Sequence record: OZ209023.1
Source: Escherichia phage T4
Direction: 5' to 3' (one strand)
DNA length: 64,000 nt
The position numbers were made by a program, and so were the translations under genes. Below, one piece after another: positions 15,589 through 58,676 of this stretch. Below the pieces are notes generated by a model. It was not told the DNA's origin. It ran no database searches and saw nothing but the letters and a program-made list of their open reading frames with translations. The first letter of the stretch is position 1. Each line of letters begins with the position of its first letter.

Positions 15589-15596
15589 TATTTATA
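15589..15596 (-). promoter_or_regulatory. T4 late promoter TATAAATA upstream of soc
   Basis: plus tatttata = minus TATAAATA, about 30 nt upstream of soc ATG. Confidence 0.5.
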
Positions 15597-41367: not shown

Positions 41368-41838
41368 TTAATCATGTTTCCACACCCCATCGGTATTTGA
41401 CCAAAGTCGCTGATTATCTGATCCTCGCCACAGCTTTTTGGTCGGAAGATTTTTCTCATACTTCCCATCAATAATAACATCAACATATTTAAGCATTTCT
41501 AGTTGTTTAATATCTTCAAACTTATATCCTGTCCACAACCAGATATCTTTCTCCGGAAATCTTGCTTTAACCCAAGAAACTAAATTTGAAATCTCTTCTC
41601 GGTTCTGTGGATAAAGTGGGTCACCGCCGGTTAAGGTAAGGCCTTGGATATACGATTTGCTTAAATGGGACGCAAGTTCTTTAACGGTATTCATAGTGAA
41701 TAACTGTCCGTTACGAGCATTCCAAGTACTACGATTATAACAACCTTCGCATTTATGCAAACATCCAGTGACGAAGAGAACGACCCTACATCCAGGGCCG
41801 TTAACGAAATCGCATGGATAAATTCTATCATAATTCAT
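41368..41838 (-). CDS. nrdG: anaerobic ribonucleotide reductase activating protein NrdG (radical SAM)
   Basis: 156 aa from MNYDRIYPCDFVNGPGCR...CxxxCxxC radical-SAM cluster motif. Confidence 0.85.
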   Translation of the reverse strand: MNYDRIYPCDFVNGPGCRVVLFVTGCLHKCEGCYNRSTWNARNGQLFTMNTVKELASHLSKSYIQGLTLTGGDPLYPQNREEISNLVSWVKARFPEKDIWLWTGYKFEDIKQLEMLKYVDVIIDGKYEKNLPTKKLWRGSDNQRLWSNTDGVWKHD

Positions 41839-42460
41839 CTTTATATTTCCAAGTATATCCCTTATGAATAGATTGAATTCCTTTGCAACATTTATAAACA
41901 GCAGAATGAAAAAATCCTGCATTTCTTATTTCAGTTGCTCCAGTTAGTTCTATTGTATTTCCGTCTGGTGAATAGCCAATAACCGTTTTGGTGTTAAAGC
42001 GATTTCTAGAACTATTTTTGATATGCTCTTTATGATTAGTAGACAAAGTTCTTCCTGTTAGCCCATCAGATATCCTTTTTCCAAAATCATCAGGAAGAGT
42101 TACTTTAGACCTAGCTATGCTCATTAGCTTCTTAGTTTTATCGCTTCTTTTTGCGCCACGCTGATTTTCAAATTTCTTAGCTTTTGCATACGCGTATTGT
42201 GAAGAAGTAACTTTTCTATGCTTACTATTACTCATTATCCAATATGCATCATACATCTTTCCACCATATATTTTAGCCAATAAATGGTGAGCAGTATAGT
42301 GGGCCTTATAAGTTAAAAATACTAAGTTGTCTAAATCATCTGAACCACCCATACTTCTTGGAATTATATGATGAAGTTCATACCCGGCTTTAGTTTGACG
42401 GGGCTTAGATGGGTGTTCAGCAGAATTAACTAGATTTGAATAGATTCTGTCATAATTCAT
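41828..42460 (-). CDS. mobC: freestanding HNH homing endonuclease MobC
   Basis: 210-aa ORF; HHIIPRSMGGSDDLDNLVFLTYKAHY HNH motif; between nrdD and nrdG. Confidence 0.7.
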   Translation of the reverse strand: MNYDRIYSNLVNSAEHPSKPRQTKAGYELHHIIPRSMGGSDDLDNLVFLTYKAHYTAHHLLAKIYGGKMYDAYWIMSNSKHRKVTSSQYAYAKAKKFENQRGAKRSDKTKKLMSIARSKVTLPDDFGKRISDGLTGRTLSTNHKEHIKNSSRNRFNTKTVIGYSPDGNTIELTGATEIRNAGFFHSAVYKCCKGIQSIHKGYTWKYKDEL

Positions 42461-45307
42461 TGGTGCTTAACCCTATGCATGATTTCTTTATTTTTACCGA
42501 GATTAAATCCGCGTTCGTTCGGATTTCCCAAATAACCACATGTTCTTCTTATGGTATTCATCTTTTTAGGATCAGTTTCTCCACAAATAGAACAAACAAA
42601 TCCGTTTTCAGTAGGAGTCATTTCATGGGTACTTCCACATGTAAAACATTTATCTACTGGCATATTAACACCAAAATAATCTAAATGCTGTGCAGCATAA
42701 TCCCACACGGCCTCAAGACCTTTTAAGTTATTTTTCATATCAGGAAGTTCAACATAAGAAATGTGACCACCTGTCGCAATGAAATGATATGGCGCTTCAC
42801 GAGAAATCTTTTCAAACGGAGTAATATTTTCTTCTACTGAAACATGGAAACTGTTAGTGTACCAGCCTTTATCGGTAACATCTTTTACGCTTCCATATTT
42901 TTCTGTATCGAGTTTACAGAAGCGATAACACAGGTTTTCAGCAGGAGTCGAATATAAACTAAAAGCAAATCCGGTTCTTTCAGTCCACTGTTTAAGATGA
43001 GCATTCATTTTAGTTAAAATTTCTCGTCCAATATCACGACCGACAAGAATATTCAATTCGTGAATACCAATGTATCCTAAAGACACTGAACTTCTACCGT
43101 TTTTAAATAACTCAATTATGTCGTCATCAGGTTTAAGACGAACCCCGAATGCACCTTCTTGGTAAAGAATAGGAGCAACAGTAGCTTTAACTCCTTTTAA
43201 GGAACTAATTCTACACATCAAAGCTTCAAAACATAAATCCATTCGTTCATTAAATAGCTCAACAAATTTCTGTTCATTGAACTGTGTTCCAATATAAGAA
43301 TCTAACGCGATGCGAGGAAGATTCAGTGTTACAACACCAAGATTATTGCGTCCATCAAGAATTTCATTGCCAGTCGAATCTTTCCATACGCTCAAGAAAC
43401 TACGGCAACCCATCGGAGAAACAGGAACAGATGAACCAGTGATAGCTTTATTGTTCTTAGCTGAAATAATATCAGGATACATCCTTTTGCTTGCGCACTC
43501 TAGAGCAAGCTGTTTAATATCATAGTTCGGATCGTCTTTATAAAGATTAACACCTTCTTCAACGAACATAACAAGCTTAGGGAAAATAGGAGTTATCCCA
43601 TCACGACCAAGACCTTTAATACGATTTTTCAGAATTGCTTTCTGAATCATTCGTTCAGTCCAGTCAGTTCCCGTACCAAATGTAATTGTTACAAAAGGAG
43701 TCTGTCCGTTTGAACTGAATAACGTGTTCACTTCATCAATGTGTTCAGTAGAGTTCGCTACTTCTCTACCCGTTTATATGAAACAATGTAATTTGGATAA
43801 TTGTCATCTAAACACAAATCTTTAATACGACTTGGGTGGAGTTTTAAATCTTTAGCAGCATCCACAAATGATTTATAGATATTGTCATTTATTTTAACAT
43901 ATTCTGGGACGGGATGAATTGTTATTTTTATATCTATAACATTTGGATGATTACTAACCTGTTCTTCAGAGCATTTAAGAAATTTTGCAGCTGATTTAAA
44001 ACTTCTAAATTTATTTCCGGATTTTAAAGCTATAGAAACAGTCTTTTTAGCCGTTCTACTACCAATATTATTTTTAACATGAGCTTCACTTCTACTATTA
44101 TTTTTATAATGCTCAATCAATTTCTCTCGTATCTTATCTTTATGTTTTAAAGATAAGATTTTACCTTTATGGGCATTACTAAGTTTTTGCTTATGTTCTT
44201 CTGAATCCGGATATTTGTTAAATTTATATCCACCTATAGATTTATTAAGAATAAATTCGTTATTAAAATATTTCCTAATAAGCATTTCTTCATGTTTAAG
44301 GGCCGATTCATAAGAATCAAAAACTTGAAGAATTATCCACTTAGCTTTATAATCTTTAAGCTTTTCTTTAACAAGCTTAGATGACGAATTGTATTCTTTC
44401 CAATTTGTATCTTTACCATATATAGTTTTGAATTTTTTAAAACCTATATAAAAAGACTTATCAGGAAATCTTACCATATAGGTAAATGCTACAGAATTGG
44501 CAATTTTTAAGCTTTTTCTTAATTTCCATTTCATCGTTTCACCTCGTATTCATATTTATACGAGGATAAACAGCTGCATGTCACCATGCAGTTCAGACTA
44601 TATCTTCAACTCTTAGAGTTGTCTGCCGTTTCGGGTCGCTTGACCCTACTCCCTTACATTCATCAGGGATAGTCGTTGGGCATTTACAGCTACTGCTGAT
44701 TTAGCAACGGATTGTCTCAGTGAGAGTTTCCCGTTTTAGGCAGATTTTACATGAGCTTGACTTACGTTAACTCATAAGCTTGGAATGCATCGTATACGTC
44801 TTTTTCTGTTTTAGATTGAGCATAATTCAACGCATCAGCGATTTGCCATTTTTCTGCATCCTCAATATGTTTTGCATAGGTGCGTTTAACATAAGGAGAA
44901 AGTACTTTATCTACATTCGCAAAAGTCGTTCCGCCGTATTGGTGAGAAGCAACTTGCGCAGTAATTTGTGCCATAATTGCAGTAGCAACTCCAATTGATT
45001 TAGGAGTTTCAATCTGCGCATTACCAAGCTTAAATCCGTTTTCAAGCATTCCTTTTAAATCTACTAAACAGCAATTAGTAAATGGAAGAGCAGGGGAATA
45101 ATCAATATCATGCACGTGAATAATTCCGCTTTCATGCGCTTTCATAATAAAAGACGGGACCATATTTTTGGCAATGTGTTTAGACACAATACCAGCCATA
45201 AGGTCCCGTTGAGTTGGAAAAACACGAGAATCTTTATTAGCATTCTCGTTTAAAAGGTCTTTATTAGTTTTATGAATTAATCCTTCAATTTCTTTTTCAA
45301 TTGTCAT
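42457..45307 (-). CDS. nrdD: anaerobic ribonucleoside-triphosphate reductase NrdD, interrupted by group I intron: complement(join(42457..43736,44770..45307)), 605 aa
   Basis: exon 2 has C-terminal glycyl-radical motif RRTCGYLG and Cys cluster; exon 1 ORF runs into intron; splice sites placed so exon 1 ends in U, intron ends in G and is 1033 nt. Confidence 0.8.
43758..44534 (-). CDS. I-TevII: intron-encoded GIY-YIG homing endonuclease I-TevII
   Basis: 258-aa ORF inside the nrdD intron; N-terminal FYIGFKK GIY-YIG-like motif. Confidence 0.8.
   Translation of the reverse strand: MKWKLRKSLKIANSVAFTYMVRFPDKSFYIGFKKFKTIYGKDTNWKEYNSSSKLVKEKLKDYKAKWIILQVFDSYESALKHEEMLIRKYFNNEFILNKSIGGYKFNKYPDSEEHKQKLSNAHKGKILSLKHKDKIREKLIEHYKNNSRSEAHVKNNIGSRTAKKTVSIALKSGNKFRSFKSAAKFLKCSEEQVSNHPNVIDIKITIHPVPEYVKINDNIYKSFVDAAKDLKLHPSRIKDLCLDDNYPNYIVSYKRVEK
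44542..44565 (-). promoter_or_regulatory. late promoter TATAAATA (44553-44560) embedded in a hairpin that sequesters the I-TevII SD
   Basis: palindrome cctcgtat...atacgagg; minus-strand TATAAATA and GAGG SD just upstream of I-TevII ATG. Confidence 0.6.
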
Positions 45308-45777
45308 TTTAAACTCTTTCTAAGCTGCTTCTTGAATGAAGCTATTAATTGTGTTTTGGTGTCAGATTCATTATATTCAAATCCTCTTTGAAGCATCTCG
45401 GCCATCATTTCCTCTTTTCCTAAACGAGAAAATTCCTTTGATTTATCTCCAACAAAGTTAGGGTGAATATTATTTTGGGTGTAATCGGATTTTAAATAAG
45501 TAAGTAAATTTTCTAACCATTCAAGATAATCAACACCTTGTCCCTTTAAGCCAGAACGATTAAATTTATGCTTCATTTGACCTTCTGCAGCATTGCATAG
45601 ATTACAAAGCAATCCACGCACCTTTCCTGCTTTTGGTCCATTTAATTCATGGTCATGGTCGAGGTGATTAGCTTGAACATCAGGATTTAGTTCTCGTTGG
45701 CAAATTAAGCATTTACCGTTTTGTGCATCATAAAATTTCTGTTTTTCTTCTTTGTATAATTTGCCAGTCAATAACAT
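45304..45777 (-). CDS. 49: endonuclease VII (Holliday junction resolvase) gp49
   Basis: 157-aa ORF; zinc-binding CLICQ...CNLCN and HxxxH motifs; recognised sequence. Confidence 0.9.
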   Translation of the reverse strand: MLLTGKLYKEEKQKFYDAQNGKCLICQRELNPDVQANHLDHDHELNGPKAGKVRGLLCNLCNAAEGQMKHKFNRSGLKGQGVDYLEWLENLLTYLKSDYTQNNIHPNFVGDKSKEFSRLGKEEMMAEMLQRGFEYNESDTKTQLIASFKKQLRKSLK

Positions 45778-45818
45778 AATAAACCCTTACCTTAAATAGA
45801 TAAGGGTATTTATTATTT

Positions 45819-46322
45819 TCAAGTATTGTAAAACATTTGATGCAATCGCTTATATTGCTGAATCATTCGGTCAGAAAAAGAAATTTGAGTTTCAAGCCAT
45901 TCAATGTACTCTGCGGCAGCTTGCATTAAATTTCCTTCATAGCCATCGTTATTTTCTTGTGCAGCTAATTTAGCTAATGCGTATGAAATACGTTCACCTT
46001 GAAAATCGGCTTTAGGCTTCTGAACAACTTGATTAGTTCGCTCTACAACTTCTTCAATTTCGCCATTTTCTACTGATTCAGTATTCCACAAACACCAATA
46101 CGTAATTGGCTTATCGTAGATGTTAATAATCTTTCCATCAGAAAGTTCAATTTCAATAATTCCAGTGTCAGGCTCTATATCATCTTCACATTCTTTTACA
46201 AGTTCACGAACTTTAAAGACAGTACCTGCACTAAGTTCCGGCCAGTAATTACACAGCCCTGTATCAGCACGATTAATTCTAAACCATTTATCTACTGTAA
46301 TCATGTCCCATCTCCATATCAA
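45819..46322 (-). CDS. pin: protease inhibitor Pin (positional assignment)
   Basis: 161-167-aa ORF immediately upstream of gene 49. Confidence 0.5.
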   Translation of the reverse strand: MIWRWDMITVDKWFRINRADTGLCNYWPELSAGTVFKVRELVKECEDDIEPDTGIIEIELSDGKIINIYDKPITYWCLWNTESVENGEIEEVVERTNQVVQKPKADFQGERISYALAKLAAQENNDGYEGNLMQAAAEYIEWLETQISFSDRMIQQYKRLHQMFYNT

Positions 46323-46427
46323 TTAAGTCATTTATCGTTGGTTCATTATACACCGTTTCTTCATCAGTGTAAACCGGTTCTTCCGGCTCTGGCTCTACAG
46401 TTTCCCATCTAGCCGCCCACCAAGGTT

Positions 46428-58668: not shown

Positions 58669-58676
58669 TATTTATA
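58669..58676 (-). promoter_or_regulatory. T4 late promoter TATAAATA upstream of the rI region
   Basis: plus tatttata = minus TATAAATA, 26 nt upstream of the ORF starting at 58643. Confidence 0.5.

What the first reader, a model, noticed from the sequence alone, without database searches (positions are those of the whole stretch)
43737..44769. Group I intron in nrdD with boundaries inferred from splice rules
The nrdD reading frame breaks at about 44770 and resumes near 43736. Between them is a GC-richer segment with recognisable group I core sequences and a 258-aa GIY-YIG ORF (I-TevII). Placing exon 1 to end at U (44770) and the intron to end at G (43737) gives a 1033-nt intron and a 605-aa NrdD, both matching what is established for T4. 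The intron interrupts the gene of a glycyl-radical enzyme, a conserved catalytic target typical of homing introns.
Basis: partly seen in the sequence, partly recalled or inferred. Interest (0 to 1): 0.5.

Follow-up and report, generated by a model that had tools for sequence, protein, structure and literature searches.

The report
Phage T4 nrdD self-splicing intron

Summary
The window is phage T4 itself: it is 100% identical to NC_000866/AF158101, and window position + 1078 gives the T4 position. The interval 43737-44769 (- strand) is the 1033-nt nrdD (sunY) group I intron.

- **Ribozyme:** Rfam's group I model matches at 105 bits (E 2.8e-26). The P1-P9 fold is recovered by free-energy folding and supported by compensatory changes in diverged relatives.
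- **Boundaries:** they are fixed to the nucleotide without using splice rules. 621 phage records carry the two exons contiguous, and an intron-less allele joins exactly at 44770|43736.
- **Product:** removing the interval gives a 605-aa NrdD identical across the junction to the crystallised T4 protein (PDB 1H78; the only difference is its engineered G580A).
- **Endonuclease:** the 258-aa ORF is the annotated I-TevII. It is preceded by a late-promoter motif inside a hairpin that hides its ribosome-binding site.

Only the 196-nt ribozyme core is GC-rich (45%); the whole intron (31%) is below the exons (36%). The insertion site is a conserved NrdD motif, but not the catalytic Cys290 or Gly580.

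Verdict: observation and interpretation are correct, and the feature is already known.

The parts
44770..45307 (-). nrdD exon 1 (538 nt; codons 1-179 plus the first base of codon Tyr180). The last 7 nt, UAUGAGU (44776-44770), form the 5' strand of P1 and end in the U of the U-G wobble pair.
   Evidence: ORF list, translation, T4 annotation, P1 pairing table.
43737..44769 (-). The complete nrdD (sunY) group I intron, 1033 nt, subgroup IA2.
   Evidence: 100% identical to T4 44815-45847. Boundaries fixed by intron-less alleles and by the 605-aa product matching PDB 1H78.
44574..44769 (-). Ribozyme core, intron nt 1-196. Elements: guide sequence GCUCAUG 44756-44750; P3 44744-44739 with 44627-44622; P4 44735-44730 with 44711-44706; P5 44725-44715; P6/P6a 44705-44680; P7 44674-44670 with 44600-44596 (pseudoknot with P3); P7.1 44669-44650; P7.2 44646-44633; P8 44620-44608; P9 44591-44574. 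There is no P2.
   Evidence: Rfam RF00028, 105 bits. The minimum-free-energy fold recovers every helix except the pseudoknotted P7. Covariation: 96.5% of cells paired against 30-48% when slid, and 11 pairs changed on both sides. Hand table of P6a, P7.2, P8 and P9.2.
44542..44565 (-). Hairpin CCUCGUAU-AAAUAUGA-AUACGAGG. It buries the I-TevII Shine-Dalgarno sequence (GAGGU, 44545-44541) and contains the T4 late-promoter motif TATAAATA (44560-44553). A 17-mer resembling the spliced exon junction (14 of 17 matches) lies at 44554-44538.
   Evidence: Fold of -17.1 kcal/mol, z = -4.4. Motif searches. Published regulatory scheme in PMC2988022 and the Loizos observation cited in PMC3984707.
43758..44534 (-). 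I-TevII homing endonuclease ORF (258 aa, stop included). It lies 3' of the catalytic core. Its last codons run into the 5' arm of P9.2, and its stop codon lies in the P9.2 loop.
   Evidence: annotated I-TevII; PHROG 314 homing endonuclease, E 8e-29; weak SegE_GIY-YIG and NUMOD hits; coordinates.
43737..43769 (-). 3'-terminal intron domain: the P9.2 hairpin GUAGAG-AAGUAGCGAA-CUCUAC (43769-43748) and the tail UGAACACAUUG, which ends in the terminal G (43737).
   Evidence: Fold. The hairpin is kept through compensatory changes, and the tail consensus YUGAAYAYAWUG is shared with the JEP6-type, phi92 and td introns.
42457..43736 (-). nrdD exon 2 (1277 nt plus the stop codon). It contains the catalytic Cys290 and the glycyl-radical Gly580.
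   Evidence: (Pfam NRDD 571 bits, Gly_radical 90 bits).

Best explanation
The interval is the bacteriophage T4 nrdD (sunY) group I intron of subgroup IA2, a mobile self-splicing ribozyme carrying a homing endonuclease gene.

- **Fold (shown here).** In the pre-mRNA, the first 196 nt fold into the P1-P9 core. The guide sequence GCUCAUG pairs with the end of exon 1 and places the U-G wobble at the 5' splice site.
- **Splicing (inferred from established group I chemistry and published T4 work).** An exogenous guanosine attacks after U44770. The freed exon 1 then attacks after the terminal G at 43737. That G is brought to the core from about 840 nt away by the 3' domain (P9.2 plus the conserved tail).
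- **Result (shown here).** The exons are joined into an mRNA for the 605-aa anaerobic ribonucleotide reductase.
- **Endonuclease expression (sequence features shown here, regulation inferred from the literature).** The 258-aa I-TevII ORF sits between P9 and P9.2. It is silent in early and middle read-through transcripts because its Shine-Dalgarno sequence is locked in a hairpin. Late transcripts start from the TATAAATA promoter inside that hairpin and leave the site free.
- **Homing (inferred from the literature).** I-TevII makes a double-strand break in intron-less nrdD alleles of co-infecting phages. Repair from the intron-containing copy copies in the intron together with flanking exon sequence.
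For: **Identity**
- 100% DNA identity to phage T4 across 3 kb and across the intron.
- The T4 records annotate a two-piece nrdD CDS and I-TevII at the same coordinates.

**RNA structure**
- RF00028 scores 105 bits, E 2.8e-26.
- The minimum-free-energy fold of exon 1 plus the core gives P1, P3-P6a, P7.1, P7.2, P8 and P9.
- On 7 related introns, 96.5% of cells pair. Eleven pairs have changes on both sides, 0 of 500 shuffles reach this, and the slid controls give 30-48%.
- P6a, P7.1, P7.2, P8 and P9.2 differ in sequence but still pair in the 66%-identical intron at the same site in JEP6.

**Boundaries**
- 621 records have the junction contiguous, and ECML-134 shows a gap of 0.

**Product**
- The 605-aa product aligns end to end with PDB 1H78 and with Pfam NRDD at 571 bits.

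**Endonuclease regulation**
- Hairpin of -17.1 kcal/mol, z = -4.4.
- One of only three TATAAATA motifs in the 64 kb lies in that hairpin.

**Literature**
- PMC2988022 and PMC1865063 state that the T4 nrdD intron is a mobile group I intron encoding the active GIY-YIG endonuclease I-TevII, and describe the promoter and hairpin regulation.
Against: Nothing found here contradicts it. The limits are as follows.
- No RNA data can be produced with these tools, so splicing, the cleavage specificity of I-TevII and the late-promoter start rest on the literature.
- General GIY-YIG profiles score I-TevII below their curated cut-offs (PF19835, 21.6 bits against 25; no PF01541 hit). No solved structure is detectable by sequence.
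- P10 and the published long-range contact between the 3' end and the core were not established here.
- The covariation set holds only 7 related sequences. Several helices had to be compared by hand because MAFFT put them out of register.
Confidence: 0.98

Rival explanations
1. The gene is truly split by a free-standing endonuclease cassette and is never spliced. The two halves would be translated separately and assemble, as published for nrdA of Aeromonas phage Aeh1, which is split by mobE.
For: - Several automatic annotations of relatives list two separate NrdD CDSs flanking a 'homing endonuclease'.
- Split RNR genes without introns do exist (PMC2988022; PMC3653736).
Against: - A full group I core with a guide sequence matched to the exon 1 end is present.
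- Exon 2 has no start codon or ribosome-binding site of its own at the junction. The listed GTG at 43731 is only the mechanical ORF start.
- The junction falls inside a codon.
- The crystallised T4 protein is a single 605-aa chain that is continuous across the junction.
Confidence: 0.01
2. It is a group I intron, but with boundaries shifted from those proposed, or with use of a proximal alternative 3' splice site just after P9.
For: - The true 3' splice site lies about 840 nt from the core, and G residues follow P9 closely.
- From my own knowledge, the literature discusses how such proximal splicing is suppressed (Michel et al. 1992).
Against: - Only 44770|43736 reproduces the sequence of intron-less alleles and an open 605-codon frame.
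- Shifts of +1 or -1 give a different junction sequence.
- The tail ...UGAACAYAWUG| is conserved just before the 3' splice site in the same-site (JEP6-type), other-site (phi92) and td introns.
Confidence: 0.01
3. It is a decayed, non-mobile intron: it still splices, but the endonuclease ORF is an inactive relic, like the I-TevIII ORF of the T4 nrdB intron.
For: - Pfam domain scores are below their cut-offs.
- An ORF-deleted derivative of the sister intron exists in phage BYEP01, so such decay does happen in this family.
Against: - The ORF is intact at 258 aa and 56% identical over its full length to the JEP6-type protein, with no frame disruption.
- Its promoter, hairpin and Shine-Dalgarno arrangement is intact.
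- The intron is 99-100% identical across 24 records from different isolates, which fits recent spread.
- The literature lists I-TevII as active and the nrdD intron as mobile.
Confidence: 0.01

Closest known systems
Bacteriophage T4 nrdD (sunY) intron with I-TevII (GenBank AF158101 / NC_000866, T4 positions 44815-45847)
   Same: It is identical in sequence, position, length (1033 nt), host gene, encoded ORF and flanking genes (gene 49 upstream, mobC and nrdG downstream).
   Different: Nothing differs; it is the same object.
T4 td intron with I-TevI (seen here in phage RB9, locus L011)
   Same: - Same IA2 architecture, including P7.1/P7.2, an identical P7 and P9, a P9.2 hairpin and the tail CUGAACAUAAUG.
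- The 3' half of the core is 85% identical to the nrdD intron.
- It also carries a GIY-YIG endonuclease under late-promoter and hairpin control.
   Different: - The td intron has a P2 hairpin, and its ORF is in the P6 loop. The nrdD intron has no P2, and its ORF lies after P9.
- The guide sequence and the host gene are different.
JEP6 / SHSML-52-1 type nrdD intron (Tequatrovirus and Mosigvirus phages)
   Same: - Same insertion site to the nucleotide, same guide sequence and same ORF position.
- 1045 nt against 1033 nt.
- The endonuclease is 56% identical.
   Different: - Only about 66% DNA identity, with many compensatory helix changes.
- Its P4-P5 segment is closer to td (87%) than to the T4 nrdD intron (74%).
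Second-site nrdD introns of phi92, nieznany and Vibrio phage F95
   Same: The IA2 core is 70-81% identical, with the same guide sequence GCUCAUG and the same host gene.
   Different: - They are inserted about 110 codons downstream, at ...(S/Y)MG|C, immediately before the catalytic cysteine.
- They are either ORF-less (phi92) or carry an ORF in the P6 loop: an HNH endonuclease in F95, a hypothetical protein in nieznany.

Membership tests
Group I intron (Rfam RF00028) | Conserved catalytic core of paired elements P3-P9, including the P3/P7 pseudoknot that forms the guanosine-binding site. | tested here: met
   - 105.3 bits against a gathering score of 50.
- The helices are recovered by the minimum-free-energy fold.
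- P7 (GACUA/UAGUC) is invariant in 7 relatives, and P3 has 5 of 6 pairs changed on both sides.
Group I intron (Rfam RF00028) | P1 helix between the end of the 5' exon and an internal guide sequence, with a U-G wobble at the 5' splice site. | tested here: met
   UAUGAGU (44776-44770) pairs 7 of 7 with GCUCAUG (44756-44750), and the last exon U pairs with G. Intron-containing alleles have G at -2 (a G-C pair), whereas the intron-less ECML-134 has A.
Group I intron (Rfam RF00028) | The intron ends in a guanosine (terminal G), and precise excision restores the host reading frame. | tested here: met
   - G at 43737.
- The product is 605 aa with no internal stop and is identical across the junction to PDB 1H78.
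- The junction is contiguous in 621 intron-less records.
Group I intron (Rfam RF00028) | Self-splicing by guanosine-initiated transesterification. | not testable with these tools
   Reported for the T4 introns in the literature cited in PMC2988022 and PMC3653736.
Subgroup IA2 (phage-type group I introns) | An extra P7.1/P7.2 pair of hairpins inserted between the 5' strand of P7 and the 3' strand of P3. | tested here: met
   P7.1 lies at 44669-44650 and P7.2 at 44646-44633. Both are kept by compensatory changes in the JEP6, phi92, F95 and td introns. The subgroup definition is taken from PMC3984707 and from my own knowledge.
I-TevII / GIY-YIG homing endonucleases | N-terminal GIY-(10-11 aa)-YIG catalytic module detectable by family profiles. 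| tested here: inconclusive
   - The motif FTY-x10-YIG is visible (residues 17-32, FTYMVRFPDKSFYIGF) and conserved in the JEP6 homologue.
- Pfam PF19835 SegE_GIY-YIG scores 21.6 bits, below its cut-off of 25. There is no PF01541 hit and no PDB relative by sequence.
- The PHROG 314 'homing endonuclease' family matches at E 8e-29.
- The family assignment therefore rests on the T4 annotation and on PMC2988022 Table 1.
I-TevII / GIY-YIG homing endonucleases | Site-specific double-strand cleavage of the intron-less allele near the insertion site, driving homing. | not testable with these tools
   Stated in the literature. One indirect trace here: all 7 differences between T4 and an intron-less allele within -166..+154 of the site lie at -2 and +8..+20 and are silent. 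This fits a co-converted exon tract.
Class III (anaerobic) ribonucleotide reductase NrdD, a glycyl-radical enzyme | Full-length NRDD domain with a C-terminal glycine-radical motif. | tested here: met
   Pfam NRDD 571.5 bits over residues 21-604 and Gly_radical 90.5 bits over 481-586. It is identical to the T4 NrdD crystal-structure sequence apart from the engineered G580A.

The most novel reading that the evidence does not exclude
The same IA2 ribozyme lineage, with an identical guide sequence GCUCAUG, occupies two different sites in phage nrdD genes. One is the T4 site (...UAUGAGU|) and the other is a site next to the catalytic cysteine in phi92, nieznany and Vibrio phage F95 (...AUGGGU|). 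Both exon ends fit the guide sequence. This would be expected if the intron moved between the sites by guide-sequence-directed reverse splicing, or by illegitimate homing, rather than by two independent invasions. The data here do not exclude this and do not demonstrate it. It concerns relatives, not the T4 intron itself.
Probability: 0.2. Interest if true: 0.3.

Novelty: already known. Interest (0 to 1): 0.04.

Why it matters
For discovery it does not matter. This is one of the three classic T4 introns, studied since the 1980s as a model for RNA catalysis and intron homing. Its value here is as a positive control. A reader working from raw sequence placed both splice sites to the nucleotide, and every independent test agrees: covariance model, intron-less alleles, crystal-structure sequence and covariation. 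The by-products are small leads for phage-intron evolution and do not change what is understood about this locus. They are a diverged sister intron at the same site, an ORF-deleted derivative, a second nrdD intron site with the same guide sequence, and a tight cluster of silent exon changes next to the insertion site.

Tried and rejected
- **I-TevII against solved structures.** A sequence search found nothing even at E <= 10, so no structural support for the GIY-YIG fold was obtained. I ran no further search on an already characterised protein.
- **Sigma-70 promoter scan of 43600-45900.** It found 8 sites against 9.4 expected, which is uninformative. T4 middle and late promoters are not covered by this scan. 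One 'terminator-like' hit (44591-44574) is simply the P9 hairpin.
- **Homing-site-like 17-mer.** TATGAGTATGAAGTGAA with up to 3 mismatches hits once, at 44538-44554, right before the I-TevII start. However, 46 of 100 shuffles also give at least one hit, so the match is not significant on its own and is meaningful only through its position and the published report.
- **MAFFT alignment A1.** It put P6a, P7.2, P8 and P9.2 out of register. The formal pair count therefore covers only P1, P3-P6, P7, P7.1 and P9, and the other helices were compared by hand. I did not build a custom covariance model, because the Rfam model already answered the question.
- **P10 and the core contact with the 3' end.** I looked for these. 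I saw only a possible 2-bp L7.2/L9.2 covariation (AAGC with GCGA in nrdD, AAGU with ACGA in td) and do not claim it.
- **Rejected readings.** An intein is excluded because the frame is broken by stops and the insert is an RNA fold. A split gene without splicing and shifted boundaries are dealt with under the rival explanations.
- **Failed call.** One literature search failed on a term that was too short.
Full report
**1. What the window is**

A 3-kb stretch around the finding (42400-45400, - strand) is 100.0% identical over its full length to Escherichia phage T4 (NC_000866.4, AF158101.6 and other T4 records). The proposed intron interval alone (43737-44769) is 100% identical to T4 positions 44815-45847. 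Window coordinate + 1078 therefore gives the T4 coordinate.

In both T4 records this region is annotated, on the minus strand, as follows:
- gene 49 (endonuclease VII);
- nrdD as a two-piece joined CDS, 43535..46385;
- I-TevII (44836..45612), described as a 'DNA endonuclease encoded by group 1A intron in nrdD; GIY-YIG family';
- mobC and nrdG.

The joined CDS spans 2851 nt. Subtracting 1033 leaves 1818 nt, which is 605 codons plus a stop.

**2. Check of the observation**

Reading the minus strand, the nrdD frame opens at 45307 and runs into a stop at 44762-44764 (ORF 44762..45307). The downstream frame continues to the stop at 42457.

The sequence at the proposed 5' boundary is ...GCUUAUGAGU|UAACGUAAG, with U at 44770. 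At the 3' boundary it is ...GAACACAUUG|AUGAAGUG, with G at 43737. Joining 44770 to 43736 gives 538 + 1277 coding nt, or 605 codons with no internal stop. The junction splits codon Tyr180 (U|AU).

One descriptive detail is only partly right. The intron as a whole is not GC-richer than its surroundings: it is 31% GC, against 36-37% for the exons. Only the first 196 nt, the ribozyme, are GC-rich at 45%. The ORF is 27% GC.

**3. Is it a group I intron?**

- **Covariance model.** A scan of the whole window against Rfam 15 gives a single hit above gathering score. It is RF00028 (group I catalytic intron) at 44805-44574 (-), scoring 105.3 bits against a threshold of 50, E 2.8e-26, and covering model positions 1-253 of 253.
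- **Free-energy fold.** Plain minimum-free-energy folding of the last 8 exon nt plus intron nt 1-196 independently returns P1, P3, P4, P5, P6, P6a, P7.1, P7.2, P8 and P9. P7 (GACUA 44674-44670 with UAGUC 44600-44596) is the expected pseudoknot and cannot be returned by that algorithm.
- **Architecture.** There is no P2. The P7.1/P7.2 insertion marks subgroup IA2.

**4. Independent support from relatives**

A sensitive search found a diverged version of the intron (about 66% identity and 96% coverage in the listed JEP6-type records) among the records that match the intron less closely than the 24 T4-type copies do. The relatives used were:
- **JEP6 and SHSML-52-1.** A 1045-nt intron sits at exactly the same nucleotide of nrdD. 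Its endonuclease is 56% identical to I-TevII over the full length.
- **BYEP01.** It carries a 345-nt derivative of that intron with the ORF deleted.
- **phi92, nieznany and Vibrio phage F95.** These carry a similar core at a different nrdD site.
- **The td intron (in RB9) and a Pseudomonas phage thyA intron.** These were added as further IA2 relatives.

On a MAFFT alignment of seven such sequences, I counted the helices that were in register: P1, P3, P4, P5, P6, P7, P7.1 and P9.
- 96.5% of cells form standard pairs, against 30-48% when the 3' partners are slid by 1-3 columns.
- 11 pairs show changes on both sides.
- 0 of 500 column shuffles reach the observed pairing or covariation score.
- P3 alone has 5 of 6 pairs with double changes.

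MAFFT put four helices out of register: P6a, P7.2, P8 and P9.2. Compared by hand, they are fully paired in every sequence although their sequences differ. Examples, T4 then JEP6:
- P6a: CAGC/GCUG and GUUC/GAAC;
- P7.2: GGGUC/GACCC and GAAUAG/CUAUUC;
- P9.2: GUAGAG/CUCUAC and GCAUGA/UCAUGC.

The hand table is fitted by eye. It is weaker evidence than the formal count, but it points the same way.

**5. Boundaries without splice rules**

I queried a 300-nt artificial spliced junction against the phage collection. It matches in one contiguous piece over at least 80% of its length in 621 records, at up to 97.7% identity. These are natural intron-less nrdD alleles.

In ECML-134 the two 40-nt exon flanks abut with a gap of 0. 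The intron-less junction reads GAAU|AUGAAG. Moving both T4 boundaries by one base either way would give GAGGAUGAAG or GAGUUUGAAG, so the placement is unique.

The conceptual 605-aa product aligns residue for residue, positions 1-605, with the crystallised T4 NrdD chain (PDB 1H78 and related entries). This includes ...AFQAYEYEVNTLF... across the junction. The only difference is the engineered G580A of the crystal construct. Pfam gives NRDD at 571 bits and Gly_radical at 90 bits.

The 3' end is further supported by a conserved terminal motif just before the 3' splice site:
- T4 nrdD: CUGAACACAUUG;
- JEP6: CUGAAUAUAAUG;
- phi92: UUGAACAUAAUG;
- td: CUGAACAUAAUG.

In each case the motif is preceded by a P9.2 hairpin.

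**6. The endonuclease gene and its control**

The ORF at 43758-44534 (258 aa) occupies the coordinates annotated as I-TevII. It lies downstream of P9, not in a core loop. Its last codons (..R V E K stop) run into the 5' arm and loop of P9.2.

Profile searches are weak:
- SegE_GIY-YIG, 21.6 bits (cut-off 25);
- NUMOD1, 22.5 bits (cut-off 22.8);
- NUMOD3, 18.8 bits (cut-off 20.4);
- no PDB relative by sequence;
- PHROG 314 'homing endonuclease' at E 8e-29.

A motif FTY-x10-YIG is visible and is conserved in the JEP6 homologue. Membership in the GIY-YIG family is therefore taken from the annotation and the literature, not shown here.

Immediately upstream, CCUCGUAU-AAAUAUGA-AUACGAGG (44565-44542) forms a hairpin that contains the GAGGU Shine-Dalgarno sequence. 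Its fold energy is -17.1 kcal/mol, z = -4.4, and 0 of 200 shuffles fold as well.

The hairpin also contains TATAAATA (44560-44553), the T4 late-promoter consensus. That motif occurs only three times in the 64 kb, all on the minus strand, against 11 expected.

This is the published arrangement. Read-through transcripts hide the ribosome-binding site, while late transcripts start inside the hairpin and expose it (PMC2988022).

A 17-mer matching the spliced exon junction at 14 of 17 positions lies at 44554-44538. By count alone this is not significant. It does correspond to the homing-site-like or operator sequence reported by Loizos et al. and reviewed in PMC3984707 and PMC2988022.

**7. Mechanism**

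Shown here:
- the fold;
- the P1 pairing with the U-G wobble;
- the terminal G;
- exact restoration of the gene on excision;
- the presence of an intact endonuclease ORF with its regulatory hairpin and promoter motif.

Inferred from established group I chemistry and the T4 literature:
- guanosine-initiated two-step transesterification;
- late expression of I-TevII;
- a double-strand break in intron-less alleles;
- homing with co-conversion of the flanking exons.

A trace consistent with co-conversion is visible. Between T4 and intron-less ECML-134, every one of the 7 differences within -166..+154 of the insertion site lies at -2 or at +8, +11, +14, +15, +17 and +20, and all are silent. The G at -2 is shared by all intron-containing alleles and makes a G-C pair in P1. 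The intron-less allele has A there.

**8. Comparison with the known, and verdict**

The object is not merely similar to the T4 nrdD/sunY intron; it is that intron. [quoted passage not shown]

The statement that the intron targets 'a conserved catalytic target' needs softening. The site lies in a motif conserved in cellular NrdD proteins: YEVNTLFSSNGQTPF in T4 and YEINTLFTSNGQTPF in the chain of PDB 9D3X. The radical-bearing residues Cys290 and Gly580 are elsewhere. It is the second intron site, seen in phi92, nieznany and F95, that abuts the catalytic cysteine.

- Novelty: already known.
- Interest: very low, except as a validation that the first-stage reading was accurate.

Noticed in passing
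window 41828-42460 (-) and 41818-41838 (-): The free-standing HNH endonuclease gene mobC begins with a 21-nt copy (19 of 21 identical) of the start of nrdG, so both proteins start MNYDRIY. mobC has taken over the ATGA overlap with the nrdD stop that nrdG has in phages without mobC (for example SHSML-52-1). The nrdG start now overlaps the mobC stop. This looks like an insertion footprint or target duplication.
   Followed up: partly
window 43717-43729 and 44771 (-), compared with locus L004 (ECML-134): Between T4 and an intron-less allele, all 7 differences within -166..+154 of the intron insertion site lie at -2 and at +8, +11, +14, +15, +17 and +20, and all are silent. The JEP6-type intron alleles keep the 'intron-less' version of exon 2. 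This suggests a short co-converted exon tract that travels with the T4-type intron, or resistance to cleavage.
   Followed up: partly
L005:396-1440 (JEP6), L003:1132-2176 (SHSML-52-1): A sister intron of 1045 nt sits at exactly the T4 nrdD insertion site in JEP6, SHSML-52-1 and other Tequatrovirus and Mosigvirus phages. It is only about 66% identical in DNA and its endonuclease is 56% identical, with many compensatory helix changes. Automatic annotations list nrdD there as two separate genes.
   Followed up: partly
L006:1496-1840 (phage BYEP01): A 345-nt derivative of the JEP6-type intron in which almost the whole endonuclease ORF is deleted. The first few codons and the last roughly 25 codons remain, and the ribozyme core, P9.2 and the tail are intact. 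It is a natural ORF-less version at the same site.
   Followed up: partly
L009 (phi92), L008 (nieznany), L007 (Vibrio phage F95): A second group I intron site in nrdD, after ...(S/Y)MG and immediately before the catalytic Cys (T4 Cys290 equivalent). It is occupied by an IA2 intron with the same guide sequence GCUCAUG as the T4 intron. The intron is ORF-less in phi92 and has an ORF in the P6 loop in nieznany and F95 (an HNH endonuclease in F95). Both exon ends read AUGRGU.
   Followed up: partly
alignment A1 (composite cores): The similarity among these phage introns looks mosaic. The 5' half of the T4 nrdD core is closest to Vibrio F95 (85%) and its 3' half is closest to td (85%). The P4-P5 segment of the JEP6-type intron is closer to td (87%) than to T4 nrdD (74%). 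The segments are small, so this is only suggestive of recombination between introns.
   Followed up: no
window 15589-15596, 44553-44560, 58669-58676 (all - strand): The T4 late-promoter motif TATAAATA occurs only 3 times in the 64 kb, against about 11 expected from shuffles. It never occurs on the + strand.
   Followed up: no
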